Of a DNA stretch of 64,000 bases, positions 26,604-64,000 are shown piece after piece. The DNA comes from Piedraia hortae CBS 480.64 (lineage: Eukaryota): NCBI GenBank assembly GCA_010093745.1, contig MU005995.1, forward strand, positions 1-64,000, in the 5' to 3' direction. The translations under genes and the position numbers were made by a program. The notes below the pieces were generated by a model. That model was not told the DNA's origin, did no database searches, and worked only from the letters and a program-made list of their open reading frames with translations. The stretch's first letter is position 1. Every line of letters starts with the position of its first letter.

Positions 26604-26910
26604 TTTGTTTGTTTGTGTTTATGTTATTTACGCCGGGCATCTCGACCGCTAAGGGTTGGCTGCAGCCTCCCTGGGGGCATATAGGTGTGCTACACTAGGG
26701 CTATGTACGGTTGCTACCTCCCCAGCCAGCATCTACAGCCCCGCAGGGCACATCAGTCTCCTCATGCTGTAGTCGCCCTCCGCTTGCAAGTGGAACGTAC
26801 AGTCGAGATAGCAGGCTGGTCTCGAGGGATCGGACGTGCACTTTTGTTACTCTCTTTGGGTCTTTAGCGTTCAGCCTGTTTCTTCAGGCTGCTCGGCATA
26901 CAGCAATATA
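26604..26910 (-). mobile_element. LINE 3' end or LINE-derived short element with (AAAC)n tail
   Basis: Minus strand CCTAGTGTAGCAC...GGGAGGCTGC...GCGGTC...GCCCGGCGTAAAT plus AAAC tail, homologous to the LINE 3' ends at 6.1 kb and 28.4 kb. 5' boundary uncertain. Confidence 0.65.
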
Positions 26911-28225: not shown

Positions 28226-28252
28226 ATATCAAAGGTTAATGCACCAGACAGC

Positions 28253-28481
28253 GGGGAATACAGGCCGCAGGCTATCCTCGCAATGCGAAGAAGGACCGCG
28301 GCTGGATAACAGCCCTTTGAGGCTCGAGATGCTTGCTAAGGAACCTAACGTATGTAGGTAGACCTAGTTTAGCACGCCCCCATGCCCTTCGGGAGGCTGC
28401 GAATGGCCGTTAGCGGTCATTTCGCCCGGCGTAAAACATCAAATCANNNNNNNNNNNNNNNNNNNNNNNNNNNNNNNNNNN

Positions 28482-28574
<93 letters not shown>
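28253..28574 (+). mobile_element. Short non-LTR retroinsertion (LINE 3' UTR only) with (ATC)n tail and 14-bp TSD
   Basis: ATGCACCAGACAGC at 28239-28252 and 28575-28588; body homologous to the LINE 3' UTR at 6050-6230. Confidence 0.85.

Positions 28575-28576
<2 letters not shown>
28447..28576. repeat. Assembly gap (35 N, 28447-28481) followed by an (ATC)n microsatellite
   Basis: Directly visible. Confidence 0.98.
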
Positions 28577-29915: not shown

Positions 29916-30320
29916 ATGAGTTTCGACGAGGTCTGTGACGCCATGTGGACCCTCGAAGCCGAAGATGAAGCGACCGAGCATGCTGTAGCATCCTTTCTAC
30001 ACATTCTCGATCGCCTCAGAGAGCTCAAATTGCGCTACGCGCAGCTTCCCCCGTGAGTGAAAGCTCACCCGGTTGTCGCAGACGACGTTAAAAAACTGTG
30101 CCATGATGCACTCGACGAATCAAGAAGCGCCACATTTGGCATTGTGGTGTTCCTGACTTTAGACGGGCAATATATTGTCAACCAGAACTCAGCATTCTTT
30201 CGGTCTTGTACTGGGATGGTTGTGCCAAGCTTTCGAACAGGTTGAATCGGTAGCAGAGGCTTTGGAGGCACTTGAAGCGGGTGACCTAAGTTATCGGCTT
30301 CAGTAGATGGAGTTAGGTGA
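29916..30320 (+). pseudogene. Disrupted paralog of the 4107-4547 orphan gene
   Basis: In-frame TGA at 30054-30056 where the paralog has Trp; later frameshift; ends AEALEALEAGDLSYRLQ*MEL vs GAVEALEAAMICHRFESMQL. Confidence 0.75.
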
Positions 30321-30399
30321 ATCGGTTGATACGGTGACGGAGGAGGATTGACGTCAATCTCGCCTTTGTGCTTCATCCTCCCTGCCTGTGGATACTTTT

Positions 30400-31990
30400 T
30401 AGATTGCTTCCCTGTCGCGATGTCCACTACAATTTTCTAGCAATGTCAAAGCAGCATTCAGCTCTCTTGTGTATAAAAAATCCATGAATTACTAAATGTA
30501 TCACTTGATGATCGCAGAAGAACTCGTAAGGATTGAAGATGCCCTTGAAATTATGGATGTGACTGTGCTTCTTCATAAGTTGGGAGCGCAGGCTGCTGTG
30601 TATCAAGAGATGGGAGGAGGCTATGTGTGAGTTGGTGGGTGTATAATCTAGAGGCGAGAGGCTTTCTGAATTTTCTCGAAGAGGGAAGCTTCGTGCTATC
30701 TTGCCTCTCGATGCTACTGCTCGGTTATGTCTACAGCAGATTGGCATGCTGGTTTTGGGTTTGCTTGAATGTTTTGTCTTCTGCACTGTCTGGGTTTGCG
30801 TTAGTAGTACTTTGTCTTATGCAGTGTCTGGCTCATTTGGAAAGAACATCGTTCCAGATCATTTTCATCTCACCTATCTCCTCATGCGATTGTTCTCCAG
30901 CATTGCTTGAACCTGTCTTTTGTAACTCCGCTAAGCCTTTCCGGCCACAGAACTCACTATCTCACGATCCCTCAGAAACAATGTCCACGTGGCTGCTATG
31001 CTGAACACGAATCATACCCGTCACCTTGGGGTTGAACAATACAGAAACCCTGCTGGGATTATGGAACCACTTCACAATGGCTTTGCTTAAACAAAGACTG
31101 ATTCACCGGAACAATGAAACAATGCGGTGGCCCACCCATTATAACGGTCAGACTATAAGTTGACAAACAATGAAGCGCATTTCTCGACCACGTACCACTC
31201 CGCTGGTACAAAGGCTTCGGATATACAGATGGGAGCTGCCCATGACACATGGCGATTCATCGAGGCATTTTTTGTGTAGTACCATGGTGATAAATTGGGG
31301 CGAATTGATCAAATTTTGACTCATCAGACGCGCTCGAGTGCCGCAAATCGCTTGTTCGTCATTACCACGCCAGTGACAGACTCTGGTCGCAAGGACCCAA
31401 TCCTTGAGCTTAACATCTACAAGCTGAAGCCGGGCGCAAAGCCTCTGCTTGTGGGTCGCCTAGCATATCCGTACGCCGGCTCTGGGTGGTACCTATCAAA
31501 CGCAATGGCATGATAATATCAAAAGGCCGGCAGCCCCTCGACATGGTGGAGAATGATGAGATGTTTCTGGTCAATTGGAGTGTGCTTTGCCTATAAGACC
31601 TGGTGGGGTGACTCATGTCACCACTGCCGTGACAACCTTACGGCCAACAGCATTTGAGAAAATACTCCAGCAATGAAAGCAAAGCTTCCAGGGTTGGTCA
31701 CTTACATCCAACGTTCTTGTTAGCTATGATGCTAACCCAAGGCTAGCCCAGCCAACGATACGATCCCTTATCTTGCGTCTCTAGGTACGTTGTGTCAGTC
31801 AAGCGCGTAAAGCTTAAAGGGCTCTAAATGTTTCTCAAGATATCTTCTAAACTCCTGTGGACGTACCTTCTGTGCCAGTAAGGATCGCCCATCCCACAAT
31901 ATAACCTTTCTTAGGCTGACTATCTACAGATTTCTGTCGATTGATCATCAGCGAGGGTCTAAGTCTCAAATAAGTGCGTACCCAGTCGCG
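30400..31990 (-). pseudogene. Decayed paralog of the F-box-like gene at 33502-34959
   Basis: GRSLLAQKVRPQEF vs GEDLLWRSVEPRAF; FKGIFNP..CFDIARKL vs LCGHFDL..SCEIVRNI; similar span, many stops. Confidence 0.45.
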
Positions 31991-33501
31991 TTGAGGAAGA
32001 AAGCTAATAAAATCTCAGGCACTCATGCTTGCTTTCCTTATTTCCTGAACCCAACAATGCCTGCACCCTGTTACCGCCGTACTATTCACCTGCTCGCGGG
32101 TGATTGCGCCAACGCTTGCCTCGGCAATTAATGCTCTTTCAGGCACCCAACGATGTGGTCAAACAACACACCCAACGCCACGGATAGCCAATGAGTGGAA
32201 AAAGGACGATAACGGGTATGTGAGACGGAGAATGTGGGCACTGAATCAGGCGTGGTTGCGCGCCGACCCAATTATACTGTACCACCACCACACCTGCCGC
32301 GGTGCTTTGTATCTTCTGTACAATCTACAAGCCTCACTACAATGTATAAGCGCTACCTGAGCAGTATAGCGGCAAAGCGAGCAGAATTGCGATACTGTTA
32401 TACTTGCAAGTAGATGTGTACCAGTATGCATAAAAGTCTATTGATTGATCGAACAACCTGACCAATTATTCATTGAATGAACCATTTCCGTAACTATTGA
32501 CTAAATGGTGTCGCTGATCATTAACCTTCTAATCCGTTCATGCGAGGGAATTGTCCGGGAATTGTCAGCCAGATTGAGCCTTTTTGAAATTGTTCGTACG
32601 CTGAAACGTCACCTTAATATTTGATTTGAGCTTACCGTTGTTTGATGATCACTTCAAACAAACCATCAAATGTCCGAACCATTCATCAACTGTCAGTGAA
32701 CGATTTAAATAGATACCCCACCCCACCATAGTACAGTGCTCGCGTCCATGTAGCGATGAGGTATTATCAGACGCCTGCCTGAGGTAGAAAGGGCACCGGA
32801 CTTCTCAGGGTTTCTACTCCGCTGAGGATGCTTCCCCTGGGGCATGATCACGTCACAGGACGTCGTCACGATAGATGGGGTTCGGGTCGTGCTGGAATCT
32901 GGAGCAGTCCTGGTACACGTCTTCCTTCGCTTCTGACTGACATTCATAGTGATGGGCAGTTGCGGTATCACACACTATTCACTATACCACCATTGGCCGA
33001 TGTCGGGGTGAGGCGAGTAAATTGCCTCCATCCGATAATAATATCCCGGAGAGCTCTAACTCGGATGGGTACCTTCACGGGGCGTCTTTGTTGAGACAGG
33101 AGATATTGTGCAATGCAGTCAAACCTGGATATTTCGGACACTGGAAAAAGTCAATTTCTCTTTACAACGAACTGTCAGCACCTCCCAATCTGGTCTTCAC
33201 GCACCCATAAACACCCGGACAAGGCGGGGACGCTACTGAGTGACTTTGGCGAACGTGGCCGACTATAGTCATGTGCGCAGCTTGTTTGGGGTGTTGTGGG
33301 TTAGTGTATGCTTCTTCGTAGCTAGTCACATAATCAGAACACGTATCTATGCCACGTGTTAGCTCGGGTCCTATAGCTTCCTCACCTCGGTCACAGGTGC
33401 CAATCACTCATTTCCCTGCCACTCGCTGGCAGCCCGATAAGAATTTCTTTAATGCCCAATCTCCCGCATGTTACGCTGCGGCAAACCGGTCTCGCGGTTC
33501 C

Positions 33502-34959
33502 TCACACCGCAGACTTGTACAAAAGCTTCCAAATGGCTTCTAAGAGCGCCGACTGCTCGCACAGGTAAAATGCGGCAAGAGATGGTGCATGTTCCTGAAT
33601 ATTCCTGACGATTTCGCACGAAAATCTGGGAATATCCGCATGATTCAGAGTGGACCCTATTCCGTCGAGGGCCAGGATCTTGAGATCTGGGTATAAAATT
33701 GATACCGAGCCGGTTTGTAAGTTGGGTAGATCAAAGTGCCCACATAGGTAGCATGTTTTGAGAAACCGACAGTTTTGGCCCAAGTGCACGAGGGTCTTGA
33801 TGGTGAACCGGTGCGGGAGCAAGAAGACAATTTCTTCTAGATAGCGTATACCTGCGAGGAGGTCGGCCATGACCTCGTCGATTAACGAAGTTGCGTATGA
33901 AGTAGCCGCGGCCTTGTTGGACACATATATCCTCAGAGAGCGCAAGATGGCGAGGCTGTTAAGGGTTGCAAGCGTACACCCATGACAAATGCTGCTCTTC
34001 GGTTCCTCCTTGAAATCTCGGAAAGTGATGGACACGCTCTCAAGCGTGGTCATTGTTCCAATTATTCCAAATGCCCCGGCAGGGAATTGGCATTCATCGA
34101 CAGACAATTGACGTATGCAACTTGAGAGTTTGGCGCAGAACGGTACAGGGTAGACTCTTTGATCAAAAAATTCACCCCAATCGTCGCTTTCCACACCATC
34201 TCGTATGATTTGATGAATCATGTGTGTGTACGGGTCTGCATCTAGAATCAAATGGCGAAATGAAGGTCGTGGAATAAGCATCCTGGCAATCCGCCCGAGG
34301 ATGTCCTTCCCGGCCTGCATCTCACCCTCAGCAAACTCCCATTCGGCCAACTCCACTGTCTCCAGATGACGATATCGAGATAGAGCCGATAACAAAAGGG
34401 GCCATGAGTATGGCGTTCCAACGATTGCAAGACGCTTGATATGCTCAGAGACCCTTCTTGATAGTACGCAGTTTTGCAAGGCTTGATTCGGGTTCAAGGT
34501 TTGAAGAAGCGTTTGCAACGGCGTTCGTGCAGGCAATGGTTGTTGTACTTGAAATGGTATATTGTTTTGATGTCGTTGTAACGTCTGATACAGTCCCAAT
34601 GGGCGAGGCATAGATGTGTTACCTGGGAATAGCTTGTAGACGATCTGAATTCTAACGGAAAGCAATGGCGAGAATGACATTCCTTCTACTTCGTTAACAT
34701 CTACAATGCCGTTGAAGCATTCATCGGCAGCTAGAGTCAACTCTCGAATTTTGTTAAGATAGTATGCTCTCCTGGGCAAGGAGCATGACTTGAAGGCTCT
34801 CGGTTCAACGCTGCGCCATAGAAGGTCTTCCCCAACATTCGCCCACATTCTGCAAGTTTTCATCGCATTAAGTAACGAAGTCTTGTCCTTCTCCAGATTG
34901 CGCAATATAAGACGAACGACCTCTGGGGGGGTGTTGGGTAGTTCACCATAGTTTGACAT
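33502..34959 (-). CDS. F-box-like protein with LRR-like C-terminus
   Basis: Intact 485-aa ORF; N-terminal LPNTPPEVVRLILRNL..SLLNAMKTCRMWANVGEDLLW fits the F-box pattern; LxxLxL repeats downstream. Confidence 0.7.
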   Translation of the reverse strand: MSNYGELPNTPPEVVRLILRNLEKDKTSLLNAMKTCRMWANVGEDLLWRSVEPRAFKSCSLPRRAYYLNKIRELTLAADECFNGIVDVNEVEGMSFSPLLSVRIQIVYKLFPGNTSMPRPLGLYQTLQRHQNNIPFQVQQPLPARTPLQTLLQTLNPNQALQNCVLSRRVSEHIKRLAIVGTPYSWPLLLSALSRYRHLETVELAEWEFAEGEMQAGKDILGRIARMLIPRPSFRHLILDADPYTHMIHQIIRDGVESDDWGEFFDQRVYPVPFCAKLSSCIRQLSVDECQFPAGAFGIIGTMTTLESVSITFRDFKEEPKSSICHGCTLATLNSLAILRSLRIYVSNKAAATSYATSLIDEVMADLLAGIRYLEEIVFLLPHRFTIKTLVHLGQNCRFLKTCYLCGHFDLPNLQTGSVSILYPDLKILALDGIGSTLNHADIPRFSCEIVRNIQEHAPSLAAFYLCEQSALLEAIWKLLYKSAV

Positions 34960-35952
34960 TGTCAGGCACGTTCTCCCTTAGCTTGAGGTTTCTGGACGAG
35001 ATGTTGCCATTGCAGTTGTACTCATGCAGTCAGCTTACCGACTGCATCTGGTCATGCGATCCTCAACCTTTTCGATCTCGCTGACCGAGGCAGGGCTAAG
35101 TCATGGATGCATGCATGCAGAGCCCGCATGTGGAATGCCGTCACTTGCCGAGGGTAACCCCCTTTCAAGAACGGCTTCCGGTTCAAATATGTAGAGTGGA
35201 CAAGCAAAATGCCTTCGCAGGACGGTAAGCCCTTAAACATTATAACAAAGACCTGTACGCCTAATTCCCCCCCCCCCCTCCCTCTCCAGAAGTAGCCAAA
35301 AGGCTGTACGATGCTTTTGCAAACACGAACAGAACAAAGCGAATTGTGTGAGGGATGAGGGCATCGATAAGGTGGACAGTCCCAACCTTTGTCAGAGTCT
35401 AGAATTGATAGTTGAGAGGTAGTCAACAAGTAGTGACTTATTGGGGCATAAATCATCCCGAGGAATCTTCATCTTTCGGTATCAACGTAGATTGGTATAT
35501 AAGAGCCCAACCCGAAGTAACCTACCGCACTGTGAGTTAGCACGTTGTATTGGACAGCCCCCTCATTGGTTGAGTGTACCAATGCAAAGTCCCTGCAACT
35601 GATTTCGCCTATCCGGTGTTCCTAAACCATTATCCGCACTAGACTATGAAGCTAGTCAATTTCTGTGTTCACAGGCGTAGCGTACTTAATCATAGCATTG
35701 CGTTGTATTTTGTTGTTCTGTCCCCGTTCACATGTCAGCACTCGAATTGCGTCCCAAACGATAATAACTAGGTTGCTTGAGCTTAATCTTGCTTGACAGG
35801 TCCGAATCGCACCTGTCAAATCGTGCGATACAATTCCAAGTGGCGGCACGTGCGGGCGAGACCGGAGACCCCACTTCTCTGTACGGATTGCAAACAGATT
35901 GGAGTGAACCAATCAAAACACGCCCGAAATGCGGGGCCAGTTCTCAAAAGTC

Positions 35953-36414
35953 ATGCCAAATGCTAGACGCAATTCAGCAGCTGCGGATAGCGAGGACGGA
36001 GTGGAAGAGTCAGAGTATGTCAAGCTGCGGTCCAGCGATGGTTTTGATTTTGTCGTGCGCCGTTCAGCCGCCAAGATATCTCCCGCCATAAAAGCAATGC
36101 TTGATCCTGAAAGTACGTCCTTTCCCTCTCCCTGCACTGAAATACCACCTAGGGTGTACTAACATCCTATCGGATAGAGGGGTTCAAGGAAGCGGAATCA
36201 AACACCTGCGTTCTTGACATCAAGTATGGATTCTCCACGTCTTATTGACCTCTGTTCTTCTGACTTGACAAACAGTGCTGTACTCCTTGGCCAAGTCTGC
36301 AGGTATCTCAACCATGCGGAAAAGTACAAAGGCCACGCCAATGTTCCGGATCTTGAGATACCACTTGAGCACACTCTACAATTGATCCTCACTTGCGACT
36401 ATCTAAACCTGTAG
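35953..36414 (+). CDS. ELC1: Elongin C (SKP1/BTB family), divergent; exons 35953-36112, 36178-36223, 36276-36414
   Basis: YVKLRSSDGFDFVVRRSAAKISPAIKAML, GFKEAESNTC, VCRYL..KYK..VPDLEIPLEHTLQLILTCDYL. Two GT-AG introns with CTAAC/CTGAC branch sites restore the frame. An in-frame ATG also lies at 35929. Confidence 0.88.
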
Positions 36415-36899
36415 CTCGGATCAAACATACGTTTCGAAGGCTAGCCTTTTGAGAATGAAGTGGTGATATGGTGGTCTGGAGACTCTGGTCGACTGTTCAT
36501 CTTTGCAACGTCGTGGTTAAAGCGGGGAGAGACGAGATAATCCATTCTGGGATACTGCGGGAACACTTTAGCTTGTCCAACAATGTAATCGCGTTCTTTT
36601 TGGGCGTATTCTCAGCAAAACTAGGTACTACATTCCCGGCATTATAACGGTCATGGCTTGAAAGCGACAGAAAATATCGTAGACACTCGACCCCCAAACA
36701 CTCATGCACTAGTAAGTTATTTTGCCGAAATACATGATTTACTTTGCATATGCTTATCGCGATCAGCCCCAAAAGCCTTCACAGACATCCAAAACCCAGG
36801 ATTCTCACCAGTCAGCTTGCTGAAATCAGATGATGCGACTCGATTTGAGTTCATCCTCCCGCCTTGGTGAGACCAGCTGCAGGACTTTCATTCCTGCCT

Positions 36900-38080
36900 C
36901 TCGTCCTACTTCGATTTTTGCACCTGACGGAAGGGAAAATGGACGTCCTCGGCCTTCCGAGGGACACATTGGCGTGCTGAATCATGTGAACTATCTAACA
37001 CGATTCCGTCCTCTGGTGGCTCCGATCCTGAAGGGCATATGCCAACCCTACTTCTTTCTGACCCTTTACTACGGTATCTTGCGCACGAGGTCTGGATTTG
37101 ATGGGTTCGACTGACACAATCGACAGTTTTCTTTCATCAGAGCTCTTGTCCTTTATCAATGTCCTGAGCTGTTGCAAGGCGTATAAATTCCTAAGCAACC
37201 CCGATCGGAAGATTCAGATGAAGAAGACTCAGGGCTGCGCAAATGCCTCCAAAGTGCTGACAATTATCATGGGAACACTGCGCAACCTACTATCGACACG
37301 CCCTCCGGGCTAGGTTACCGAGTCGCTAGACTTGGGTGCTGCAGACCTGCCCTATACTGTCAAGACACGTAGGTAGCGAGCCCTCATGTCCGCCAACAAA
37401 GCCGTTCGTGGAAGAACTCTCCAATCTTCTCCGAAAAGGTGATTGGCTAGATTGTTCGATGCAGAGGCGATTGAGACTCCACAACAATGGTTCAACAATG
37501 TCGTGGTCGACCCTTCACAGGATGTACGCACCATTGACCTCCCTCCGGCCTGATGCAGCCGGTCCAACGTCTGAGTTGATTGAGGACCAGGTCGCCTAGA
37601 TGACACGAAGCTCAGCGAGTTGTAGCCTGTCGCGAGATTTGCAGCTCCATCGAGCTGCCGCACCGCAACGAAGACTTGTTGCACACAATCCGCGATGGGT
37701 TCGACGACACGGTGGACGAAGTCTCCAAGATGTGTTACAAGGGTAAGTCCCACACGCTCACCCGCGAGGTGACCATGGCCCTGGCCAAGTTTCAGCCAGT
37801 TCAGGTCGTTCAAGACAAATCTGAAACACCGCTATTTGAGCCGCACTACACCGAGCAGATGCTCAAAACCTACAAAAACGTGGTGAAGCATTACCTCTGC
37901 TTCTTCTCTCGCGTTGCGGTCAACGGGCCGTATTTCGCCACCAATAACGACGCTATCCCCTCGGCGGGGCCCAACGAGGCCATCAAACTATCAGACGGCG
38001 GGCGTCGTACATGGCTGAGTTTGGTTTACAACGCACAACACCACCAAGACTGCTTTTGTGTGTTGCGCTGGTCTATTTGA
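36900..38080 (+). mobile_element. Second degenerate TLH-like relic (two pieces, possibly rearranged)
   Basis: PLFEPHYTEQMLKTYKNVVKHYLCFFSRVA (37676-38080) resembles the N-terminal part of TLH ORFs; 36900-37560 contains weaker matches. Confidence 0.4.
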
Positions 38081-38124
38081 AAGTGTCGTCCTTCACTTCG
38101 GGTTATATAACGCCCCCGCCTCGT

Positions 38125-38455
38125 GGCAACGATTATCAACGGACTATTCACACGGTGGCTGGATACCTTTGTGAGCACATACTTGTCTACAGCAAAATGC
38201 AACAAGAAGACGTTCGCCACGTCCAGATGTTCTTCAAGAAGCTCACGGACAACCAACCCCAACTCGACATTGAAAAATAGGCATTTCACCAGTCGTCCAT
38301 CGCTTACCTCGGCCTCATCATCGGCAACCAAGGCGTACAGATGGATGGCACGCCATCGACACTTGGGCACACCCGCACACCATCAGAAGCTTCCTAGGGT
38401 TCAAAAACTTTTATCGCCAGTTCATCCCGAACTATGCAGAGGTGGTGCTGGCAGT
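38125..38455 (+). mobile_element. Ty3/gypsy reverse transcriptase fragment
   Basis: INGLFTRWLDTFVS / HILVYSK..EDVRHVQMFFKKL..LDIEK*AF..IAYLGLIIG / SFLGFKNFYRQFIPNYAEV. Confidence 0.8.
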
Positions 38456-40632
38456 CGAGCGGTTAGCAGAAGCAGGCAGTAAAGAAAAACATCGCACCAA
38501 GAATCAGCGTGCTGTTGAAGTCTTTGTTTTAAAGCCAGGGCAAAAACGGGTCCGAACGACCGCCCGCGGCCTCTCAAAGGACATCGGGCATACTATCATA
38601 GTTTATGTGGGATGATAACAGGAATCCCAACCGAGCCAGCAAATCTATTCCCTTAAGGCTCCTTTTATCCTCCTACTGCGTTCCTTCTCCGCCGATCGCG
38701 AAATTTCTCATTCTCGTCATGTCTTTGGGAGAAGTGCATTCTCCGTGTAGCCGCCCCAAGAGCACTCACCGCATGGGCCGCAGAGGGAACTTCTCAATGC
38801 TGAGAGCTTTCTCCTCGCTCTATTTGCTTCGAGCGAACAGGCAAACCCTGGCTCAGAGAAGAGATCGTCTCCGCCATGGGGATGGGACTTGACACACGCT
38901 GTCAATCTGGCATCGAGGTAGCGCGACCGTCTTATCACCTAACTCTTTTGTTTCAGTGACCGGATGGCGAAGGGCCTAGCTTTTCGAGGGTGATAGGGGG
39001 GCAGCAATGCGCACCCACCTCCTCCGTTGATGTTCCCTGGCTCCGCCACATGCTGATGGATAGACAGATTCGTAGCCGGTACCGCATTCAGGTCGGCATT
39101 GTCGGCAGCCATTTTGTCATTTATTTACAATTAAAAGGTTGACACGAACGAATTTGGAACTCTGTCTAGTCGTGATCATCATTCGTAACCGTCATCCAGA
39201 GTGAACTTGAAAGTCGGACTAGACAGTTTCATGCATCAAAACCAAATCACATGTTCGTCCAGGTGCATGCATGAGACCCACTGACTCCGTCCCAAGGAAG
39301 TCAGCAACTAGGCCTCAACCAGTATGGCGCGTAAGTTCATCCGGAATCGGCATGAGGTCTGAAGTCGTCAATCTTAGTTACGTTGGCTTGCAAGGGTGTT
39401 TCTGTGGCCCGAATAGAAAACCCAGAAGGATTCAGAATTCGTCTAAATTAGGAAGTGACAGCCAGTACTAGGCCATCTTGGACCTGAATCACCTTTGCCA
39501 ACAGGAAATGTGCGGGGTGGCTTGTCGTCGTAAAGCATCGAGCACTGCAATAGGATCTCTTTGCTGCTGCTTGCGGCAGCTCCCGAACTTAAATAGTGTT
39601 TATCAAGACGCCGACGTCGTCTGCCACCTGGTGCGGGAAGGTCTCAAATGATGGGGCATGCTATCACATCTTGCCCAAAGCGAGGCGCAGCTGAACTGCT
39701 CATTCTGTGCCAAACTATCTATGCTCACGGCGAGGATCGCTAGCTGCGCTGATAGTTCATGTCGAGTAAGTCAGCTCTCAATCCTCTCAAATCTTTCAGA
39801 GTTCATTCTTCAACTTTATGATCCTGGGTGTACAACAGCCTGCTGAACTAGCGGCTTGAGTGACTCACACCACTCGCACATTTCTTATCTGATCCATTGA
39901 CCACTCCCGCCACGAGGACAAGTGCGCCTCATCTCATCATTCCCAAATTCCTCCACTCAAGTTCCATACGAGCAGTCACACGTGCAACCCTCCGCCTCCA
40001 ACAGTTGAAAGTGAACCACTACCGCCCCTGAAGAACCCCTCTTACGCATCGATCCCGTCGGGAGCAATTGGGCGGTATTGGTTTTGAAGGCTACGTTTTT
40101 TGGGCAGATTCGATCTGGGCGGTAATGTCTCATGAGGAGGTCGTTGGGAAGATTTGGCTGAGTTATAAATTGGAGGTACGTACGAATATGGTTGCGGTGA
40201 AAATTTCATGGTGGCGGTTGGTGGGTGTGTTGAATGTGGTGTTGTGAGGTCGAGGATGGAGGCTTCGAGGGGGGCTTCCGAGTTGGGGGGACTGGAGGAC
40301 GGTTGTTTGGGGTTGGAGTTATTATGGTGAAGGGGACTGAGGAGGGGAAGGTGGATGTGTTTGTTGGGGTGGAGGCTTTTGGTGAGGAAGGTGGCTACGG
40401 TGGAGGTGGACGTGGTGGATACCGAGAAGACACCATCCAAATGCCATCCTTTTCTGCTCTTAGCAGAAATCTCGAGTGGCCGCTACACTGCAGCTCTCAT
40501 ATCTCACCTCTAAAGAGCATTGAAAACTCTATAGACTCATCTACCAGTAATCACTTTGTTCCTGCTGGTAAATCGTTCGCTCGATGTCTCTCGAAGCTAC
40601 CTATATTACAAGACCCCCATGCTTTTTGGCTG

Positions 40633-45620: not shown

Positions 45621-45819
45621 GGTGGGATGAGTAAACGGTCGTAAGGTCGTATAATGACGATATGGCGATGGAAGCACCTGATGGTCAGGTTATAAAGGCC
45701 TCCAAAATCCAATTTCTACGAAGATAAAGAGCCTGCACAGTGAGTCCAGGGTCTGTTAGGAGCTGTCTAGCACCGTCCAAGCCTCGAACAAAGCTAGGGA
45801 GTTTGCTGCATTACAAGCT

Positions 45820-46310
45820 ACAAAGAACGAAGCCACTGTCAAATATCGCTACCCCTTACCGCTCATCAAAGAGACACTGGGCTCATTAAGTAATCCCAAA
45901 TTCTACACCAAGTTAGACGTGATAGCAATGTTCAACAGGATCGGAGTCACCGAAGGCCACAAGTGGATGACGGCGTTTATCACTCGCTTTGGTCTTCATA
46001 GATGCACCGTGACACCGTTCGGGTTGCGTAATGCACCCGCCAGCTTCCAAAGTTATATTAACTCGGCGTTACATGATGCCCTTGACGATGACTGCACTCC
46101 ATACTTGAATTACACCTTCATCTACAGTAAGAACATGGGAGGAACACTCAACATATGTCGAGGAGTTCATCAAAAGACTAGGCGAATCCGGACTCCAGCT
46201 CGACATCAAGAAGAGCGAGGTCTATGCGAAGAAGACCAAATATCTCAATCTCATCATATCCACCGACGGCCTGAGCATGGATCCCGAGAAAGACAAGACT
46301 GTTGAAGACG
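45820..46310 (+). mobile_element. Ty3/gypsy reverse transcriptase fragment
   Basis: YRYPLPLIKETL..FYTKLDVIAMFNRI..WMTAFITRFG..PFGLRNAPASFQSYIN; YLDD decayed to YLNY. Confidence 0.9.
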
Positions 46311-47024
46311 GTAGAGTTTCAATGGACCTTTCTGGCACATGGTTTTCGCAAATTAAATCCGACAAACCAAAAGGTAACTATATGCACTGAATCATTTCCC
46401 GCAGTGTTAATCCTGATTCAGGAAATTCATGTCCAAAGCGCATACGAGAAGTACCAATGGTGTAGGCATCATGACTTGTTTGTCATACATGCTCACGCAA
46501 TGGAACTATGAGCCTCGAAGTGTGCCACCTCGTGCCTCCCTAACCCAAGAGACCAATGAAGATACCCAGTAAGTATACTCACACATCTTTTTGTTTTTCA
46601 TACTCCCGGCTGACGTGATTCAGAAACATACGCTTTGACAAAGACACCGAGGTCTCTGAGAGTGACGAGGGCGAGGCGTTCGAGTATGACGGCGGAGTTG
46701 CGTCGGAGGCCCGCGACTGTCCAAGGACAGAAATTAGTGCTCTCGTCGACGCCGATGCTAGGCGTCGGATGCTCGAGAACATTCTGAGCGGCAACACTCA
46801 GCCTCGCATGGTCCGGGCCAAGCGTGGCGAGATCGCCGGCAGCACTCCGGCTCTCGATTGCTCGGAGCTAAAATTGAAAGGCTACATGGCCCAGTTCGAC
46901 AGGACGACGAGATCCATGGTCTTGCTCACGCATAGTGCGTTGAGCATGGAAGAGCAAGTGGGGGTTGTAACGGGAGGAAAGTTCAAACTGAGCACGAGGG
47001 TCGGCAGGCGTCTCAGCCACGAGG

Positions 47025-52406: not shown

Positions 52407-52471
<65 letters not shown>

Positions 52472-52955
52472 AAGGGAACCCCCCCCCCCCCCCCGCTTCC
52501 CCCTAACCCACTCCCCTAACAGTTCCCAGTCATCAAACCTCAAAATCGTTCCCCCCGCTCACTATCCAACCACCACCTCCCCCTTTAAATTCGCGCCCAG
52601 CGCTCCAGGCGTGCAGGACTCTCTCCGCACCACCGTTGCCAACCCCACCCAACCAACATCCACCCACCCACTCGAATCCCGCCTCAAACAGTGGCGCGCG
52701 CAGCAGGATGCCCTGAAAATGGAACTTTTGCGCCGACAGTTTGGGATTGCGGAGCCGGTGCGTCGCGCGGTGGAGTTGAACATTGTGAGGGCTGGGGAGG
52801 GGGTTGTTTGTAAAGAGTTGGGGGGGAGTAGTAAGGTTCATGAAGAGATATTGATGGGGAGGGAGGCGGAGGTGGATTGGGAGGATGTGTATCCCGGGGA
52901 GGTACAGGAGGGGTTTAGGAGGGAGATGGAGGGGTTGATGGGGGTTAGAATTTGA
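52399..52955 (+). CDS. UMP1: Proteasome maturation factor Ump1; exons 52399-52401 and 52530-52955
   Basis: ATG followed directly by intron GTAACG...CTAAC...CAG; HPLESRLKQW..KMELLRRQFGIAEPVRRAVE..VHEEILMGREAEVDWEDVY. Confidence 0.9.
52409..52494. repeat. Intronic homopolymer tract C53-A12-GGGAA-C16
   Basis: Counted directly from the sequence. Confidence 0.95.
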
Positions 52956-53218: not shown

Positions 53219-53799
53219 TTACAAAATAACACAACCACAACATCCCCCTCCCCTTTCCCGTTCATTATCACGACTAGATTGCCTCTCCGCCGTCGTCCCA
53301 CCCATCGAAGCCTTCCTATTCTTCTTCGGATTCTCATTCCCCGCATCCCCGAAATCAGGAGGCTTGACAGTAATATGCACCACATTCGGTTTATTGAAGC
53401 TTATGCCGTACTCTGCATCCCGCGTTAGCATCCTTACTCTTTCCCCCCCCCCCCCCCCCAAAAAAAAAGAGAACACGATGAAAACCCACCGATAAGAGCC
53501 CTATTATCATCAATCAAATGCCCCATAGTAATAAGCCTAATTTCCGCCGGCGAAATCGGTTTCGCGACACCCCATTCCTCCTCCTTCCACTCCCGAAATA
53601 ACATCTCCTTGAGCCTGTAGCCTTTTATCGTTCGCGGGTCTTCGTCTCCCGTCGCTGAAGCCGGAGTTTGGGTGGATGTAGACTGTTGCAGAGTAAACTC
53701 GTGTTTCGCACCAGTGCTGAGGAGGAGGGTTATCCGCAGATCTTGGGCAAGCGTCTTTTCTGCAGCCTCGTCGGGGGGTTTTATGGGTTGCATTTCCAT
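53219..53799 (-). CDS. UBL3/membrane-anchored ubiquitin-fold protein; exons 53799-53490 and 53412-53219
   Basis: LKEMLFREW..W..P.SPAEIRLITMGHLIDD, NVVHITVKP, C-terminal CCGCVIL CaaX box; intron GTGGGT...GCTAAC...CAG. Confidence 0.85.
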
Positions 53800-53856
53800 T
53801 TGAATGATTCAATGAATGGGGGGTTGAGACTTAGGTGGGTTTGGCGATGCGACCGT

Positions 53857-53927
53857 GATGATGATGATGATGATGTTGTTGTTGTTGTTGTTGTGTTGTT
53901 GTTGTTGTTATGGTGGTGGTGGTGGTG
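53857..53927. repeat. Compound microsatellite (GAT)n(GTT)n(GGT)n in a divergent promoter
   Basis: Directly visible. Confidence 0.9.
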
Positions 53928-55260: not shown

Positions 55261-56766
55261 TCACACCGATATTTCCCTTTTTCTCCATCCGTTTACGCCT
55301 CTCCATGCCCATAACCACAACAGACAAGCTGTCCACACACTTGCAGCCATGGCCCAGAACGTGGACTCATAGCAACGCACGCCCGAGCACAGCCCATCCG
55401 GACCAGCAGCACGCTGATACACGGCAGAGTAGATTAGACCCCAGAGGGTGGCTCCCACTGCCGGTGCAGTTGCAAGTATGCCCCAATTTGTTCCAAAGTT
55501 TTCCACTCCCCATACTATGCTGGTAATGATGGGAACAAGACTGAAGACTGCACCGTAGCCAGCTCCAATGGATGCAGAGACAATCCAGAACAGATCAGCC
55601 TTGTCCTGCAGAGCACCAGAGGCCAGAACAACTTGCCCAACTGACATGATTAATGCAAAGACGATGAGAAACAAGACTCGTGAAACTTCCCACCTGCCAT
55701 CCGTCGTAGGAGCAAGAAGATCCGTCAGGGTCCCAGTCGCAATTCTGGCAAGAGTCGAAGTTGCTGCCACAACAGAGACATGCGTAGCCGCACCACCAGC
55801 ATTATCTGGTCGCAGAGTATCCAGCACAGTTCCCATATTATTGATAAACGCCTCTCCGGGCCCGGTGACCAGGAAGAAACCAGCAGCCAGCCACCACATT
55901 GTGTGGTCCGTTAGAAAGTTCTTAGTCCTCTCATTCAGTAATCCGTCAGCGTTCTTTGGACTCTGCTCCTCTTCCTCCACCAAAGTTCCATATTCCGTCG
56001 ACTCCTGCACAATCAACTGTTCATCCTCTTCAACCCTCAAGGCACTAAACCCAACACACCCAATAACAGACAAAAACACAGCCAAGAAAACAAAATACCT
56101 ATACACATCCACCTCCCTCTCCCCCTCCGGCAGGATATCATACAGCAAATGCACCCCCACCTGTGCCTGCCACATTCCACTCAACCCAAAACACGCAATC
56201 GGCAACGCGAGCGCGAGGCCCTTGAAGCGACCCCTCCCAAAGTTCTTCGCACACGTCGTGACTGCGGAGATATACATGCAGCTCGTCGCACTCCCAATCG
56301 GCACAAACGCAGCCATCATAGCCTGGGGAGGCCAAGCCGCAGGCCCTGCTCTATAAACCATCGCGGCAAACGCATATCCCACACCAAACAACACCCCCGC
56401 GAACAGCGACGGGGTAGCTGGCCCGAGACGATCACACACAATCCCAAACAGCGGAACAGGAAGATACATCGCCAACTCCGCAGCGATACTCACGCCATTA
56501 ACCTGCAGCTGAGAGTAATGCAGCCTCTTCTGAAACAAGGGACCGTAGAGACTAAACGCCATAATGCTCCCCGCGCCGAGACAGTTTATTATCGCCCAGA
56601 GAAACGACAACTGAGCGACAGCGCGTTTCCGCAAAGCAGCTCTCTGCCGCGCCGCGATCCCAGCCGCGACGTTTTCAAGAAAAGTACTGCCATCAGGCCG
56701 GAGGAGAGGCGCTTCCTCGCCATTTTCTTGCTGACGGTACTCACGTCTATCGATTCGGCGAGACAT
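55261..56766 (-). CDS. MCH1: MFS transporter, MCH1/nodulin-like family
   Basis: About 12 hydrophobic segments; AGSIMAFSLYGP, SAVTTCAKNF, GPGEAFINNMG, WGVENFGTNWG. Confidence 0.85.
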   Translation of the reverse strand: MSRRIDRREYRQQENGEEAPLLRPDGSTFLENVAAGIAARQRAALRKRAVAQLSFLWAIINCLGAGSIMAFSLYGPLFQKRLHYSQLQVNGVSIAAELAMYLPVPLFGIVCDRLGPATPSLFAGVLFGVGYAFAAMVYRAGPAAWPPQAMMAAFVPIGSATSCMYISAVTTCAKNFGRGRFKGLALALPIACFGLSGMWQAQVGVHLLYDILPEGEREVDVYRYFVFLAVFLSVIGCVGFSALRVEEDEQLIVQESTEYGTLVEEEEQSPKNADGLLNERTKNFLTDHTMWWLAAGFFLVTGPGEAFINNMGTVLDTLRPDNAGGAATHVSVVAATSTLARIATGTLTDLLAPTTDGRWEVSRVLFLIVFALIMSVGQVVLASGALQDKADLFWIVSASIGAGYGAVFSLVPIITSIVWGVENFGTNWGILATAPAVGATLWGLIYSAVYQRAAGPDGLCSGVRCYESTFWAMAASVWTACLLWLWAWRGVNGWRKREISV

Positions 56767-56912: not shown

Positions 56913-61290
<4,378 letters not shown>

Positions 61291-62284
61291 GGGTACTTTG
61301 CCAGAAACTGTTGATAGACATGAGTAGACCAGACAAATTGTGTGCAAATAGTTGTGAGGATCACCGAATTGAATGGTTGACGCGATAGGACAGATGCAAG
61401 TTGGTAGAAAGACTGGACGTCAAGGCGACGCCATCCACCGCTGCTCTATACAGGCCACGGAGGCCAGCCTACAAAGAACCGCTGAGTACACAGCACAATT
61501 GGGGATACACAGGCAGAGAGACACGAAGCCACTGATACCATCTACTTACATTACCGATACACCTTCTCCGCGACGCCGCCAACCGCCACGCCGGCGATGA
61601 AAGTGTGAAGGACATCAAAAATTACGCCGCCCAGGCCCCCGAAGGAGACTGGCGCCATGTCCTTGCCGCGCTGTGCAATGCAGAAGGCCACGACGGAAGG
61701 AGGAGATGCTTGAGCCTCCCCTTCGCAACAAGGTAAGTATGAAGAAAGAAGAAAAGGAAGAGGAGCAAGAACCTCTTAAGAGCGAGGGCGAACGCGCTAG
61801 CACGGACCATGCAGGGGTTTGGCCAATGAGAAGTGGTGCTAATGCGGCAGGGCGGAATGACGAAGTGCCATGGTGATGATGTCACATGTGATCAACGTCG
61901 CGGGATGGTTGAAAGTCATCTGAGAGGTAGAGGGCTCGGGATTCACTTATCTTTTCGTGAGGCCAAGATTTGATAAGGGCTACTTGTCTTGAGGTGTGGA
62001 AACGATGAACACGATAAGGAGATGTGCGGGGGTACGATATGCATTGCAAGAGTGCTGTTTGCTATTGAATACCTCAACACGTAGATTCATGATCATGAAT
62101 ACAGGGTGTGAACCCCTCTCCAACCTTCAGTGTGTAGTTAGAAAGGCATCGTCATCTGTTTACGCTTCATCAACCGTCCCAGTCTTATTTCACCATCACC
62201 TTTGCCAACCTTCTCAATGCACGCCAATCCCCTTCGTCAACTGACTGAAAATCCCCAAGGTCGATGGAATGCATTGCTCCCTGA

Positions 62285-62617
62285 GCCACCTTCGGTCTCT
62301 TTGGGCACAGCCACCTTCTTGACCGCACCAACGGCAAACGACGGCAGCTATGGCGGAGTTGAGAAGCGACCAGAGGCATCGTTCATGCCCATGTTTGAGA
62401 TTGTAATGGTGCCGCCCCGGTATTCCTTCGGCTTTAGTTTGCAATTCCTGGCACGCTTACTGAGATCCTTGATTGTTGCAAGAATCAGCCTTGAAGGTAG
62501 TAGGCTGGGGAGGGTTGATGACAGCCTTGAATCGGTCAGTGGCATCATTCATACCCATGTTGGATGTTGTAATAGTGCTACCCTGGTAATCCTCCGGCTT
62601 TAGCTTGCCGTCTCTGG
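62285..62617 (-). pseudogene. LAT1: Two overlapping-content fragments of pyruvate dehydrogenase E2 (catalytic domain)
   Basis: [33 protein letters not shown] (62617-62500) and [42 protein letters not shown] (62490-62285). Confidence 0.85.
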
Positions 62618-62619
62618 TA

Positions 62620-63670
62620 CCTGTGAGGACCACATGTACCGTATTGGTGTGACCCATTCCTCCACGCCACCCCTGGACGCAGATGACGGTATCTCCTTTT
62701 GCCACCACGTCCGACTTGATGGCATTCATATCGTCCCATTGAGCTGCTGAGCCACGTCCTCCTTTTTGTGCATTTCTGAAAGTTGGTTTTTCGCCGGAGA
62801 TTGGAAAGGGTAGACACCACGGTAGAGCTGTGAGTACCACGATACAGCCGCGAGTACCAATATGATCTGGCACACACGACGGTACTTCGGAATTAGTCGC
62901 AGGACCTCGCCCCTACCGCTGTCCAGCAAAAGATGACGTTTCTGAAGAGATCGTCAAGCAATGGGTGGCATCTGCATTCCGCTCAGGGAGGCGTTCGCTG
63001 CAGCATGTCTCCATGGAGGGAAAGCGGTGAGCAACCACATTGCTCAGCTCGTTGAGTGTCGTGATGTACGGCACAGTCGTCTCTGCCGGCAAGCACATCT
63101 CGTGCATCATGGCCACGGCTTCACCTGCAGTATCCTCCCTTGACCGTCCCAACCGACAGTATCAAGACAGCCTGCTCTGCCAGGTACAGCATTGCTGGCA
63201 TCCCAACCTCAGCATGTCGAGCTGTAAATCATGCTCTCCAACATTTGGGTTGTACAGATGACCTGTTTCCCGGAGAGGTTGCAACGGCAGATCATCATTT
63301 CTTGGGCAATGAAGCCTTGGACTGGCGAGATATCTGCCGAGATTCAACTCCTTCCTCATTTGAGCGGTCGTCACCCCTCCCTTGCGATACTTCTGCTTCA
63401 GATCCACTAGGTTTGAGGAAAGGAGGTTCGACTTTCTTGATACCTTGTGCTTCTCAGTCCGCGAGAACCACCATCACGCCGTACACGAGGTAAGCTGTTC
63501 ACGCCCTGCTGGTTCTCGATCTTGGTGATTATCTGTAGGTCCTTGCCCTCATCGCCCAGAATCTTGCGGATGGCTAGCACGACAACTTTGCCGCGAACGA
63601 ATGAGGCGAAGATCATGTCGACACTGCTCTTCACACCGAACTTTATGTCGGCGTTGTCCTTCTCCGAGAC
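62620..63670 (-). pseudogene. PYK1: Decayed C-terminal half of pyruvate kinase with a ~120-bp unrelated insert
   Basis: [91 protein letters not shown]; frameshifts and stops. Confidence 0.9.
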
Positions 63671-63673
63671 TTA

Positions 63674-64000
63674 TCAACTTTGATGCTCAGGTGAGCCCCA
63701 TATCAGGCCCCATTTCCACGCAGATGCAGCTTTACGCATGGCATCGCCGCGGTCATTCATGGGTGTGATGTGCTCGTAGACCTCATGTGTCAGTCGACGA
63801 CTGTATGGGTCGTAGCGGTAGGCCAGCATTGTGGGGTTGTGGATCATGGCGCTTTCCAGTTGAAAATGGTCACCCCTTAGGTACAAGGTGCAGCCCACTT
63901 GCTGGTCCTTGGACAAGCGAGGAGACGTGCAGCCGATGATCTCACCCTTAGAGAGCGGGGCTTTCTGCGGCACGACGACATTGTAGCCCGCTGCTCTCAG
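63674..64000 (-). pseudogene. DPH1: Internal fragment of diphthamide synthesis protein Dph1 (continues past the window end)
   Basis: PQKAPLSKGEIIGCTSP..FQLESAMIHNP..AYRYDPYSR..KWGLIWGS; conserved GDGRFH and LGRQG decayed; truncated at the PYK junction. Confidence 0.85.

What the first reader, a model, noticed from the sequence alone, without database searches (positions are those of the whole stretch)
62185..64000. Same-strand mosaic of fragments from unrelated housekeeping genes (DPH1-PYK-[insert]-PYK-LAT1-LAT1)
Seen: on the minus strand an internal DPH1 piece abuts the 3' half of pyruvate kinase within ~10 nt. PYK runs in frame into a PDH-E2 piece ([19 protein letters not shown]), then a second E2 piece follows, then an unidentified C-terminus (SVDEGDWRALRRLAKVMVK*). 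Another coding-like ~120 bp ([25 protein letters not shown]) sits inside PYK. No introns, UTRs, poly(A) tails or transposon sequence separate the pieces. Inference: a process that concatenates sense-oriented coding fragments, such as LINE RT template switching between mRNAs, cDNA-patched break repair, or Helitron-like capture. It could seed chimeric genes or trans-acting small RNAs.
Basis: partly seen in the sequence, partly recalled or inferred. Interest (0 to 1): 0.72.

Follow-up and report, generated by a model that had tools for sequence, protein, structure and literature searches.

The report
Expressed patchwork pseudogene of three genes
A small fungal genome carries one transcribed stretch stitched together from decayed copies of three of its own housekeeping genes; patchwork pseudogenes of this kind are known, and the data at hand cannot settle how this one was made.

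Summary
On the minus strand, 62185-64000 holds head-to-tail pieces of DPH1, pyruvate kinase (PK) and the pyruvate dehydrogenase E2 subunit (twice). The Pfam E-values run from 2e-21 to 2e-9.

- **Source:** the DPH1 piece is 83% identical to Piedraia hortae DPH1 and at most 68% to other fungi. The copies therefore come from this lineage's own genes.
- **Not a misassembly:** a DNA contig at single-copy depth and an RNA contig from a second sample both span every junction with 0 differences. The locus is transcribed.
- **Corrections:** the "unidentified C-terminus" is the E2 C-terminus. The "coding-like 120 bp" is a 112-nt insert between adjacent PK codons, of unknown origin.
- **Decay:** the PK piece has about 10 frameshifts. 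The DPH1 piece has none, is an open frame that runs off the window, and shows a mild excess of synonymous changes.
- **Neighbour:** a U1 snRNA gene lies 445 nt downstream on the same strand.
- **Mechanism:** unresolved. There is no poly(A) relic, no Helitron-like end, no RIP (fungal repeat-induced point mutation) signature and no multicopy signal. The lack of introns is uninformative.

I lean to an RNA/cDNA origin, because of the shared orientation, the 3'-anchored pieces and the expressed parents. This is a new member of a known kind, of moderate interest.

The parts
63680..64000 (-). DPH1-derived piece (parent residues 210-316 of 423). It is an open frame that runs off the window, and a stop codon at 63674-63676 follows 2 codons after homology ends.
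   Evidence: Pfam E 2.2e-21. 83% aa identity to P0001 of Piedraia hortae, at most 68% to others. The parental contig differs at 50 of 321 nt with no gaps and diverges at 63680 into the parental continuation. Applying the 33 listed differences reproduces P0001 at 102 of 107 codons.
63457..63679 (-). Pyruvate kinase piece, first part (about residues 204-275 of 527), starting at ..SEKD.. directly after the DPH1 piece.
   Evidence: Pfam PK E 1.2e-19; tblastn and frameshift-aware alignment to P0149.
63345..63456 (-). 112-nt insert of unknown origin between adjacent PK codons (RGD|LG).
   Evidence: Read from the sequence. No match elsewhere in the window beyond chance: observed score 21 against a shuffle mean of 20.6. 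One weak hit to an HTH-repeat protein, P0181, E 1.2e-4 summed over 5 stretches.
62625..63344 (-). Pyruvate kinase piece, second part (about residues 276-516 of 527), ending about 11 codons before the parental stop.
   Evidence: Pfam PK E 1.2e-10 and the end of PK_C. Over the whole PK piece, 183 of 311 aligned residues are identical to P0149, with 10 frameshifts. The parental PK contig matches 62641-62729 with 15 differences in 89 nt, and its loose ends read as PK sequence.
62499..62624 (-). E2 (LAT1-type acetyltransferase) piece a, residues about 341-381 of 444, in frame with the end of the PK piece.
   Evidence: Pfam 2-oxoacid_dh E 1.6e-9. 30 of 37 residues identical to P0144 and 34 of 39 to P0132, with no frameshift.
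62185..62498 (-). E2 piece b, residues about 331-436 of 444, overlapping the region copied in piece a and running to within about 8 codons of the E2 C-terminus. Stop codon at 62185-62187.
   Evidence: Pfam E 2.3e-9. 56 of 101, 47 of 96 and 60 of 94 residues identical to P0144, P0137 and P0132, with 1-3 frameshifts. 77% nt identity to piece a over 92 nt.
61741..62184 (-). Spacer of unknown origin. It may hold the parental E2 3' UTR and the U1 promoter. 61741-61808 is about 90% conserved next to another U1 copy.
   Evidence: No Pfam hit in any ORF of 75 aa or more. No A-rich tract or Helitron-like end. X1 record 5 matches 61718-61808 with 6 differences and 3 gaps.
61611..61740 (-). U1 snRNA gene (a neighbour, not part of the mosaic). 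It starts with ATACTTACCT and has an Sm site.
   Evidence: Rfam RF00003, 53.2 bits (gathering score 69.5), E 2e-10, model positions 1-166. The DNA contig covering 61610-61745 has depth 36.3 against 12-14 for its neighbours, suggesting about 3 copies.
61741..64000 (.). Transcribed region: one RNA contig with 0 differences, running 6 nt past the window end. Strand unknown.
   Evidence: X2 record 12. X2 is shown to be RNA by two GT..AG intron skips at 54189/54235 and 54703/54745 and by zero cover at 58885-59047.

Best explanation
This is a real, single-copy, transcribed composite pseudogene of Piedraia hortae or a very close relative. Decayed copies of the organism's own DPH1 (internal part), pyruvate kinase (3' 60%) and E2 acetyltransferase (a short internal piece plus the 3' end) are joined head to tail in the same sense.

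**Shown:** the pieces, their parents, the abrupt junctions, single-copy status, transcription, and neutral-looking decay of the PK and E2 parts.

**Inferred (about 0.4):** the pieces were copied from mRNAs. A reverse transcriptase either switched templates or produced cDNA fragments that were ligated into a chromosome break. Synthesis would begin at the 3' end of the E2 message, re-copy part of E2, move to PK near its 3' end, and then move to DPH1.

The composite now behaves as non-coding DNA in its PK-E2 part. The DPH1-like open frame at its 5' side may have stayed under some constraint, with the PK-E2 patchwork serving as its 3' untranslated region.
For: - **Pieces and parents:**
- **Junctions are real and the locus is single-copy and transcribed.** X1 record 4 (DNA, depth 13.5) and X2 record 12 (RNA, a different sample and study) cover 61716/61741-64006 with 0 differences.
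- **Parents still exist elsewhere.** The DPH1 parent contig differs at 50 of 321 nt and goes on into parental sequence where the mosaic switches to PK. The PK parent contig differs at 15 of 89 nt.
- **Points toward RNA templates:**
  - All recognisable pieces share one orientation.
  - PK ends about 11 codons, and E2b about 8 codons, from the parental stop, which is a 3' bias.
  - Only exonic sequence is recognisable.
  - The parents are expressed. The PK parent's RNA contig has the highest depth of those laid, 1094.
  - A reverse-transcriptase relic lies in the same window at 45760-46302, RVT_1 E 1.1e-8.
- **Possible constraint on the DPH1 part:** 0 frameshifts in 321 nt against 10 in about 930 nt of PK (p about 0.05). 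At least 22 nonsynonymous and at most 28 synonymous differences, against 56% nonsynonymous expected (p about 0.06).
Against: - No A-rich relic lies downstream of E2b.
- PK lacks its last codons and its 3' UTR, so it was not primed from a poly(A) tail.
- At least 4 template switches would be needed. The fungal and mammalian chimeras in PMC2104539 (abstract and section 5 read) have one or two.
- The 112-nt insert sits between adjacent PK codons with exact resumption. That fits a later insertion or a parental intron better than a detour during reverse transcription.
- Shared orientation of three junctions has a chance probability of about 1/8, so it is weak evidence.
- Absence of introns is uninformative, P(0)=0.64.
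- The RT relic looks LTR-like rather than LINE-like, and only by Atlas look-alikes.
- Both statistical hints for DPH1 constraint are marginal.
- The transcript's strand is unknown.
Confidence: 0.4

Rival explanations
1. DNA-level capture. Fragments of genomic DNA from three loci were inserted at a chromosome break by end joining, or copied in by serial replication template switching, in one or several events.
For: - The junctions are abrupt. The DPH1|PK switch is located to within about 2 nt by the parental loose end.
- The pieces are 0.11-1.0 kb long.
- The backward re-copy of E2 (piece a lies inside the span of piece b) resembles replication slippage or template switching.
- The 112-nt insert looks like further filler.
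- The pieces have decayed unequally, which suits stepwise accretion.
- Yeast breaks are known to capture mtDNA, cDNA and nuclear fragments (PMC11372161, abstract and passages read). That paper's reference list cites Yu et al. 2018 on 'large and complex DNA insertions' in Dna2-deficient cells; that paper was not held.
Against: - All pieces are in sense orientation (chance about 1/8).
- Nothing but coding sequence is recognisable.
- Two pieces end at the 3' end of their coding sequence.
- No microhomology could be checked without the parental DNA.
Confidence: 0.3
2. Transposon-mediated capture. The composite is the cargo of a non-autonomous Helitron or another capturing element, gathered stepwise.
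For: Same-strand multi-gene fragment arrays that are transcribed are typical of Helitron cargo. This rests on PMC3288121 and PMC4289320, of which I saw only search listings and the starts of the abstracts. The 5' end of the composite lies outside the window.
Against: - No hairpin followed by CTRR-T occurs on either strand of 61741-62300, although only 4 of 200 shuffles give one.
- The visible part is at single-copy depth, 13.5 against 12-14 for neighbours.
- No transposase or Rep/helicase domain appears in any ORF of 75 aa or more in the window.
- The genome is the smallest among 101 Dothideomycetes, 16.95 Mb (PMC7082219, passages read).
Confidence: 0.1
3. A truncated DPH1 paralogue that is still functional, either as a protein lacking the third domain or as a regulatory RNA. 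The PK-E2 patchwork would be merely its 3' UTR. This concerns present function and does not exclude the origin models above.
For: - The frame is open for at least 107 codons and runs off the window.
- No indel against the parent in 321 nt.
- Listed differences fall at codon positions 1/2/3 as 5/10/18 (33 of the 50 differences were listed).
- The RNA contig has depth 210, comparable to the parent's 221.
Against: - The selection signals are marginal (p about 0.05-0.06).
- 21 of 107 residues differ from the parent.
- The frame stops before the part of P0001 that follows residue 316. The role of that part (third cluster-binding cysteine) is from my own knowledge and was not tested here.
- The start of the frame was not seen.
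Confidence: 0.15
4. Duplication of a block in which the parents were already neighbours, followed by deletions; or an assembly artefact.
For: The parental gene order could not be examined, because no genome is held.
Against: - The parents lie on separate DNA contigs (records 6 and 7). Their RNA contigs have very different depth, 1094 against 221.
- Piece a of E2 duplicates part of piece b, which simple deletion does not explain.
- An artefact is excluded by contigs from two samples that span every junction with 0 differences.
Confidence: 0.04

Closest known systems
LINE-mediated chimeric retrogenes: MINE and the tripartite WEIRD/Mg-SINE/MGL chimera of Magnaporthe, and U6-L1 chimeras of mammals (PMC2104539, abstract and section 5 read)
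   Same: Copies of different cellular transcripts are fused directly, in the same orientation. Many are transcribed, and they occur in a filamentous ascomycete.
   Different: Those chimeras carry a LINE or SINE 3' part and 10-20 bp target-site duplications, and they have two or three parts. This composite has at least five parts from three protein-coding genes, no LINE part and no A-rich end. Its flanks could not be checked.
Helitron gene-fragment capture (maize stepwise capture, PMC3288121; Pleurotus and other fungi, PMC4289320; search listing and start of abstracts only)
   Same: Arrays of fragments from unrelated genes on one strand, which can be transcribed as chimeric RNAs and can grow stepwise.
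   Different: No Helitron-like 3' terminus was found and the visible part is at single-copy depth. No Rep/helicase is nearby.
Capture of cDNA, mtDNA and nuclear fragments at double-strand breaks in yeast (PMC11372161, abstract and passages read; Yu et al. 2018 seen only as a title in its reference list)
   Same: Insertion of one or more foreign fragments of about 0.05-1 kb with abrupt junctions, while the donors stay intact.
   Different: Those are experimental events at an induced break. Here the event is old (about 16% nt divergence from the DPH1 parent), fixed and transcribed.

Membership tests
LINE-mediated chimeric retrogene (template-switch type) | Copies of different cellular transcripts fused directly in the same transcriptional orientation | tested here: met
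   DPH1, PK, E2a and E2b all lie on the minus strand. The junctions are resolved to a few nt.
LINE-mediated chimeric retrogene (template-switch type) | The 3' component is a LINE/SINE, or an mRNA 3' end with a poly(A) tract | tested here: not met
   No run of 5 or more A occurs downstream of the E2b stop in 62300-61741; the richest 20-nt window holds 10 A. No LINE domain lies in the mosaic. Decay over a long time could have erased a tail.
LINE-mediated chimeric retrogene (template-switch type) | Flanking target-site duplications of 10-20 bp | not testable with these tools
   The 5' end lies beyond 64000 and no genome is held.
LINE-mediated chimeric retrogene (template-switch type) | Parental introns absent | tested here: inconclusive
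   No insertion of 40 nt or more other than the 112-nt insert. Only 0.45 introns are expected, P(0)=0.64. The parental gene structures were not available.
Helitron with captured gene fragments | 3' hairpin followed by CTRR, inserted before T | tested here: not met
   No such site on either strand of 61741-62300. The 5' TC end is not testable.
Helitron with captured gene fragments | Repeated termini or related copies in the genome | tested here: not met
   The DNA contig over 61716-64006 has depth 13.5 against 12.3-14 for flanking single-copy contigs. This covers the visible part only.
RIP-mutated repeat (repeat-induced point mutation) | TpA/ApT above about 0.89 and (CpA+TpG)/(ApC+GpT) below about 1.03 (thresholds recalled, not from a call) | tested here: not met
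   The indices are 0.51 and 1.40 for 62185-64000, and GC is 53%. Differences from the DPH1 parent run in both directions (table 1).
U1 spliceosomal RNA (RF00003), for the neighbouring gene | Match to the covariance model, with the 5' splice-site-pairing end and an Sm site | tested here: inconclusive
   53.2 bits, below the gathering score of 69.5, but E 2e-10 over model positions 1-166. The 5' end ATACTTACCT, the CAUUGCAC loop and the AAUUUUUG Sm site are all aligned; the last stem is missing.

The most novel reading that the evidence does not exclude
The locus may be a living chimeric transcription unit rather than dead DNA. A truncated DPH1 paralogue would be kept under selection in the smallest known Dothideomycete genome, and its long 3' region, built from PK and E2 sequence, would tie its RNA to those mRNAs. 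Alternatively, the site just upstream of a U1 snRNA gene may repeatedly capture cDNA of expressed genes. The unequal decay of the pieces, the 112-nt filler, and a third, younger DPH1-like fragment elsewhere in the genome (record 8) all point that way.
Probability: 0.1. Interest if true: 0.7.

Novelty: new member of a known kind. Interest (0 to 1): 0.4.

Why it matters
Composite pseudogenes record how eukaryotic genomes copy and paste pieces of their own genes. This one has at least five pieces from three housekeeping genes. It sits in a 17-Mb, gene-dense, repeat-poor fungal genome and is still transcribed at a level like its neighbours.

If the pieces prove to be RNA-derived, it would be a more complex template-switch or cDNA-capture product than the two- and three-part fungal chimeras in print. 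If the DPH1-like frame is under selection, it is a case of gene birth from a truncated duplicate. Otherwise it is an ordinary decaying relic.

Tried and rejected
- **Whole genome:** none is held. Parents, flanks and a genome-wide count could not be searched directly.
- **Exact look-up of three candidate Prp43 proteins:** not in the collection.
- **Earlier findings of this scan:** nothing by place, sequence or words.
- **Parental PK and E2 proteins of P. hortae:** not recovered. In one search, 10 hits among 36 candidates were mostly insect PKs. In one search, 50 hits among 381 candidates included none named P. hortae. Related fungi were used for mapping instead.
- **Sequencing runs:** no listed holder is on record as RNA. 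X2 proved to be RNA only through intron-skipping contigs.
- **E2 parent:** no E2 parental contig was laid at 80% likeness or more. This could reflect divergence or the tool's human-likeness filter, so no conclusion is drawn.
- **Origin of the 112-nt insert:**
  - No repeat in the window.
  - One weak HTH-repeat hit, and a Pfam VbhA hit at E 0.048. Neither is significant for a single stretch.
  - An intron reading was rejected as unlikely: there are no GT..AG ends at the PK codon boundary, and the two observed introns are 41-45 nt. It is not excluded.
- **Other tests:**
  - RIP: rejected.
  - Helitron 3' end and poly(A) relic: none.
  - A 16-nt palindrome at 62085-62100: about one is expected by chance in 64 kb (my estimate).
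  - Type of the RT relic: look-alikes are mixed.
- **Other mosaics in the window:** none among 300 ORFs of 75 aa or more. About 240 of these were scanned; overlapping frames inside known genes were skipped. Shorter fragments would be missed.
- **Not run or not held:**
  - Metagenome scan for relatives' intron positions: not run, because fungal PK and E2 hits there sit on cDNA-sized contigs.
  - Paper PMC6346745: not held.
Full report
**Setting.** The window is an ordinary gene-dense fungal region. ORFs of 75 aa or more carry these Pfam domains:
- an FMO-like oxidase
- a mitochondrial carrier
- Dph6
- Upf3
- a Gemin5-like WD40 protein
- an F-box protein
- a ThiF-type E1 enzyme
- Nmd3
- a P450
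- Ump1
- a queuosine-salvage protein
- an MFS transporter
- Tyw1
- a Prp43-type DEAH helicase (58894-61290, + strand)

GC is 45-58% throughout. The finding lies just past the helicase, at the right-hand end of the window.

**Observation.** On the minus strand, reading from 64000 down to 62185, Pfam recognises the following:
- Diphthamide_syn, E 2.2e-21
- the PK barrel in two ORFs, E 1.2e-19 and 1.2e-10
- the end of PK_C, weak at 22.4 bits, running in frame into 2-oxoacid_dh, E 1.6e-9
- a second 2-oxoacid_dh piece, E 2.3e-9

| Piece | Window (minus strand) | Parental residues | Identity | Frameshifts |
|---|---|---|---|---|
| DPH1 | 64000-63680 | 210-316 of 423 (P0001) | 86 of 107 | 0 |
| PK | 63679-62625 | 204 to about 516 of 527 (P0149) | 183 of 311 | 10 |
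| E2a | 62624-62499 | about 341-381 of 444 (P0144) | 30 of 37; 34 of 39 (P0132) | 0 |
| E2b | 62498-62185 | about 331-436 of 444 | 47-60 of 94-101 | 1-3 |

The 'unidentified C-terminus' aligns to the E2 C-terminus, so E2b is the 3' end of the E2 coding sequence. E2a lies wholly inside the span that E2b copies, and the two share 77% nt identity over 92 nt.

The 'coding-like 120 bp' is a 112-nt insert (63345-63456). It lies exactly between the D and L codons of the PK motif RGDLG, and PK resumes at the very next codon.

**Source of the pieces.** The DPH1 piece finds 1065 proteins at E of 0.001 or better among 1220 candidates. The best is P0001, named by its source as a Piedraia hortae CBS 480.64 protein, at 83% identity. 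All others are 68% or less.

In one search, a contig present in both runs matches 63680-64000 with 50 differences in 321 nt and no gaps. Applying the 33 differences that the tool lists to the window DNA reproduces P0001 at 102 of 107 codons. The five misses lie at the alignment ends, where differences are not listed.

That contig is therefore the DPH1 gene of the same organism. The window is P. hortae or something very close to it, and the piece is a diverged copy of the resident gene.

Where the mosaic turns into PK (63680/63679), the parental contig goes on with sequence that translates to the next residues of P0001. This fixes the junction to within about 2 nt.

A second contig matches 62641-62729 with 15 differences in 89 nt. 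Its RNA depth, 1094, is the highest seen here. Its loose ends translate to PK sequence on both sides, so it is the PK parent. It shows that PK homology ends a few codons after ..HTNT.., about 11 codons short of the PK stop.

No E2 parent was laid at 80% likeness or more.

**Reality of the junctions, copy number and expression.** X1 may be the source of the window. Its record 4 covers 61716-64006 with 0 differences at depth 13.5, like the flanking single-copy contigs (12.3-14). The composite is therefore single-copy.

X2 comes from a different sample and study. I take it to be RNA for two reasons:
- One of its contigs skips two GT..AG introns of the queuosine-salvage gene (54189/54235 and 54703/54745).
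- Depth accounting shows zero cover at 58885-59047, upstream of the helicase.

X2's record 12 covers 61741-64006 with 0 differences at mean depth 210. That compares with 225 for the helicase and 221 for the DPH1 parent.

Misassembly is therefore excluded, and the composite is transcribed. Contigs cannot give the strand, the ends or a reliable level.

All four contigs (mosaic and DPH1 parent, in DNA and in RNA) stop 6 nt beyond 64000. No difference is required in 63977-64000. Mosaic and parent therefore share an identical stretch of at least 30 nt there, and the DPH1 piece continues out of the window.

**State of decay.** The PK part has about 10 frameshifts, and E2b has 1-3 plus an in-frame stop. 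These parts are dead as coding sequence.

The DPH1 part is different.
- It has no indel against its parent in 321 nt.
- The frame is open for at least 107 codons.
- Of its 50 differences, at least 22 are nonsynonymous and at most 28 synonymous. About 56% nonsynonymous would be expected if the copy had drifted neutrally while the parent stayed constrained.

The one-sided p is about 0.06. The chance that all 10 frameshifts fall in PK is about 0.05.

Two readings fit. The DPH1 piece (and perhaps E2a) may be younger than PK and E2b, which would mean stepwise accretion. Or all pieces may be of one age, with the DPH1-like frame constrained for part of its history.

A rough calculation from the synonymous divergence supports the second reading as possible. 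A neutral piece of the same age would be about 78% identical to its parent.

There is no RIP signature.

**Mechanism.** RNA contigs show 2 introns in 7.3 kb of neighbouring genes, so 0.45 are expected in the 1.66 kb of copied coding sequence, P(0)=0.64. The parental gene structures could not be fetched, because no genome is held.

Negative results:
- Downstream of E2b there is no A-rich tract and no hairpin-CTRR end.
- Nothing in the visible part is repeated.
- No transposase or Rep domain lies nearby.

For an RNA origin:
- All pieces share one orientation (about 1/8 by chance).
- PK and E2b end within about a dozen codons of their stops.
- Only exonic sequence is recognisable.
- The parents are expressed, PK very highly.
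- A reverse-transcriptase relic lies in the window (45760-46302). Its type is unclear.

Against an RNA origin:
- At least four template switches would be needed. The chimeras described in Magnaporthe and mammals have one or two (PMC2104539, abstract and section 5).
- PK lacks its 3' UTR.
- The 112-nt insert resumes PK exactly. That looks like a later filler insertion or a parental intron.

I rank the origin models as cDNA-based assembly (template switching or capture at a break) about 0.4, DNA-level fragment capture or replication template switching about 0.3, and transposon cargo about 0.1.

**Neighbourhood.** 445 nt downstream on the same strand lies a U1 snRNA gene (61740-61611; Rfam 53.2 bits, E 2e-10, full model). 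Its DNA contig has three-fold depth, and another copy shares about 68 nt of upstream sequence. It is a bona fide multicopy gene with its own promoter, not a piece of the mosaic.

Whether the position upstream of a strongly transcribed snRNA gene matters is speculation. One possibility is that it acts as a break-prone or targeted site.

An RNA contig (X2 record 11) follows 61605-61732 and then departs. The point of departure is exactly the place where the + strand, being the complement of the U1 5' end, reads CAAG|GTAAGTAT, a perfect 5' splice site. This may be a spliced antisense transcript or a paralogous locus, and I could not decide between them.

**Comparison and verdict.** The closest described things are:
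- LINE template-switch chimeric retrogenes
- Helitron cargo arrays
- complex insertions at double-strand breaks

The locus shares with all of them the direct fusion of unrelated gene pieces. It fails, or cannot be tested for, the features that define the first two.

It is best filed as a new member of the known kind 'composite (mosaic) pseudogene'. It is notable for the number of its parts, for its expression, and for sitting in the smallest Dothideomycete genome, 16.95 Mb and 7,572 genes (PMC7082219, passages read).

I found no description of it in the searches. Supplements were not consulted.

Interest is moderate at 0.4. It would rise if the DPH1-like frame proves to be selected, or if the full genome shows more such composites.

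Noticed in passing
window 61611-61740 (-): A U1 snRNA gene (Rfam 53.2 bits, E 2e-10) lacks the last stem of the model. Its DNA contig has about three-fold depth, so there are several identical copies. About 68 nt upstream are roughly 90% conserved at another copy.
   Followed up: partly
window 61732/61733 (+): RNA contig X2 record 11 (1121 nt) matches 61605-61732 and then leaves the window sequence. It leaves exactly at CAAG|GTAAGTAT, the perfect 5' splice site formed by the antisense of the U1 5' end. This is either a spliced antisense RNA or a paralogous locus. The main RNA contig over the mosaic starts at 61741, one base outside U1.
   Followed up: partly
elsewhere in the genome (X1 record 8, laid on window 63769-63856): A third DPH1-like fragment lies on a 1649-nt contig, with 10 differences from the mosaic in 88 nt. 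Six of these are shared with the parent, so it is closer to the parent than the mosaic is. It has low RNA depth (about 9). DPH1 has therefore been partly copied at least twice.
   Followed up: no
window 45760-46302 (+), with repeat arms 10019-10107 / 46793-46881: A decayed reverse-transcriptase ORF (RVT_1, E 1.1e-8) lies next to an 89-nt, 84% inverted repeat shared with the 10-kb region. This is a retroelement relic of unclear type.
   Followed up: partly
window 14342-16129 (+): An intact-looking Dph6 gene (Diphthami_syn_2, E 2.1e-24) lies 48 kb from the DPH1 fragment. This is probably a coincidence.
   Followed up: no
laid on window 59440-59504, 60391-60414, 63492-63556, 55899-56167: Run X1 also holds contigs at about 260-fold depth, roughly 20 times that of this genome. 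They match only the most conserved bits of the helicase, PK and MFS genes. They probably come from another, more abundant organism or data set within the coded run.
   Followed up: no
window 22000-40000: About 18 kb has few Pfam-recognisable ORFs (only an F-box and a Skp1-like bit) and slightly lower GC. There are also long CAT/CAA triplet runs at 28484-28576 and 53856-53893, and poly-C/poly-A tracts at 52431-52479 and 53443-53474.
   Followed up: no
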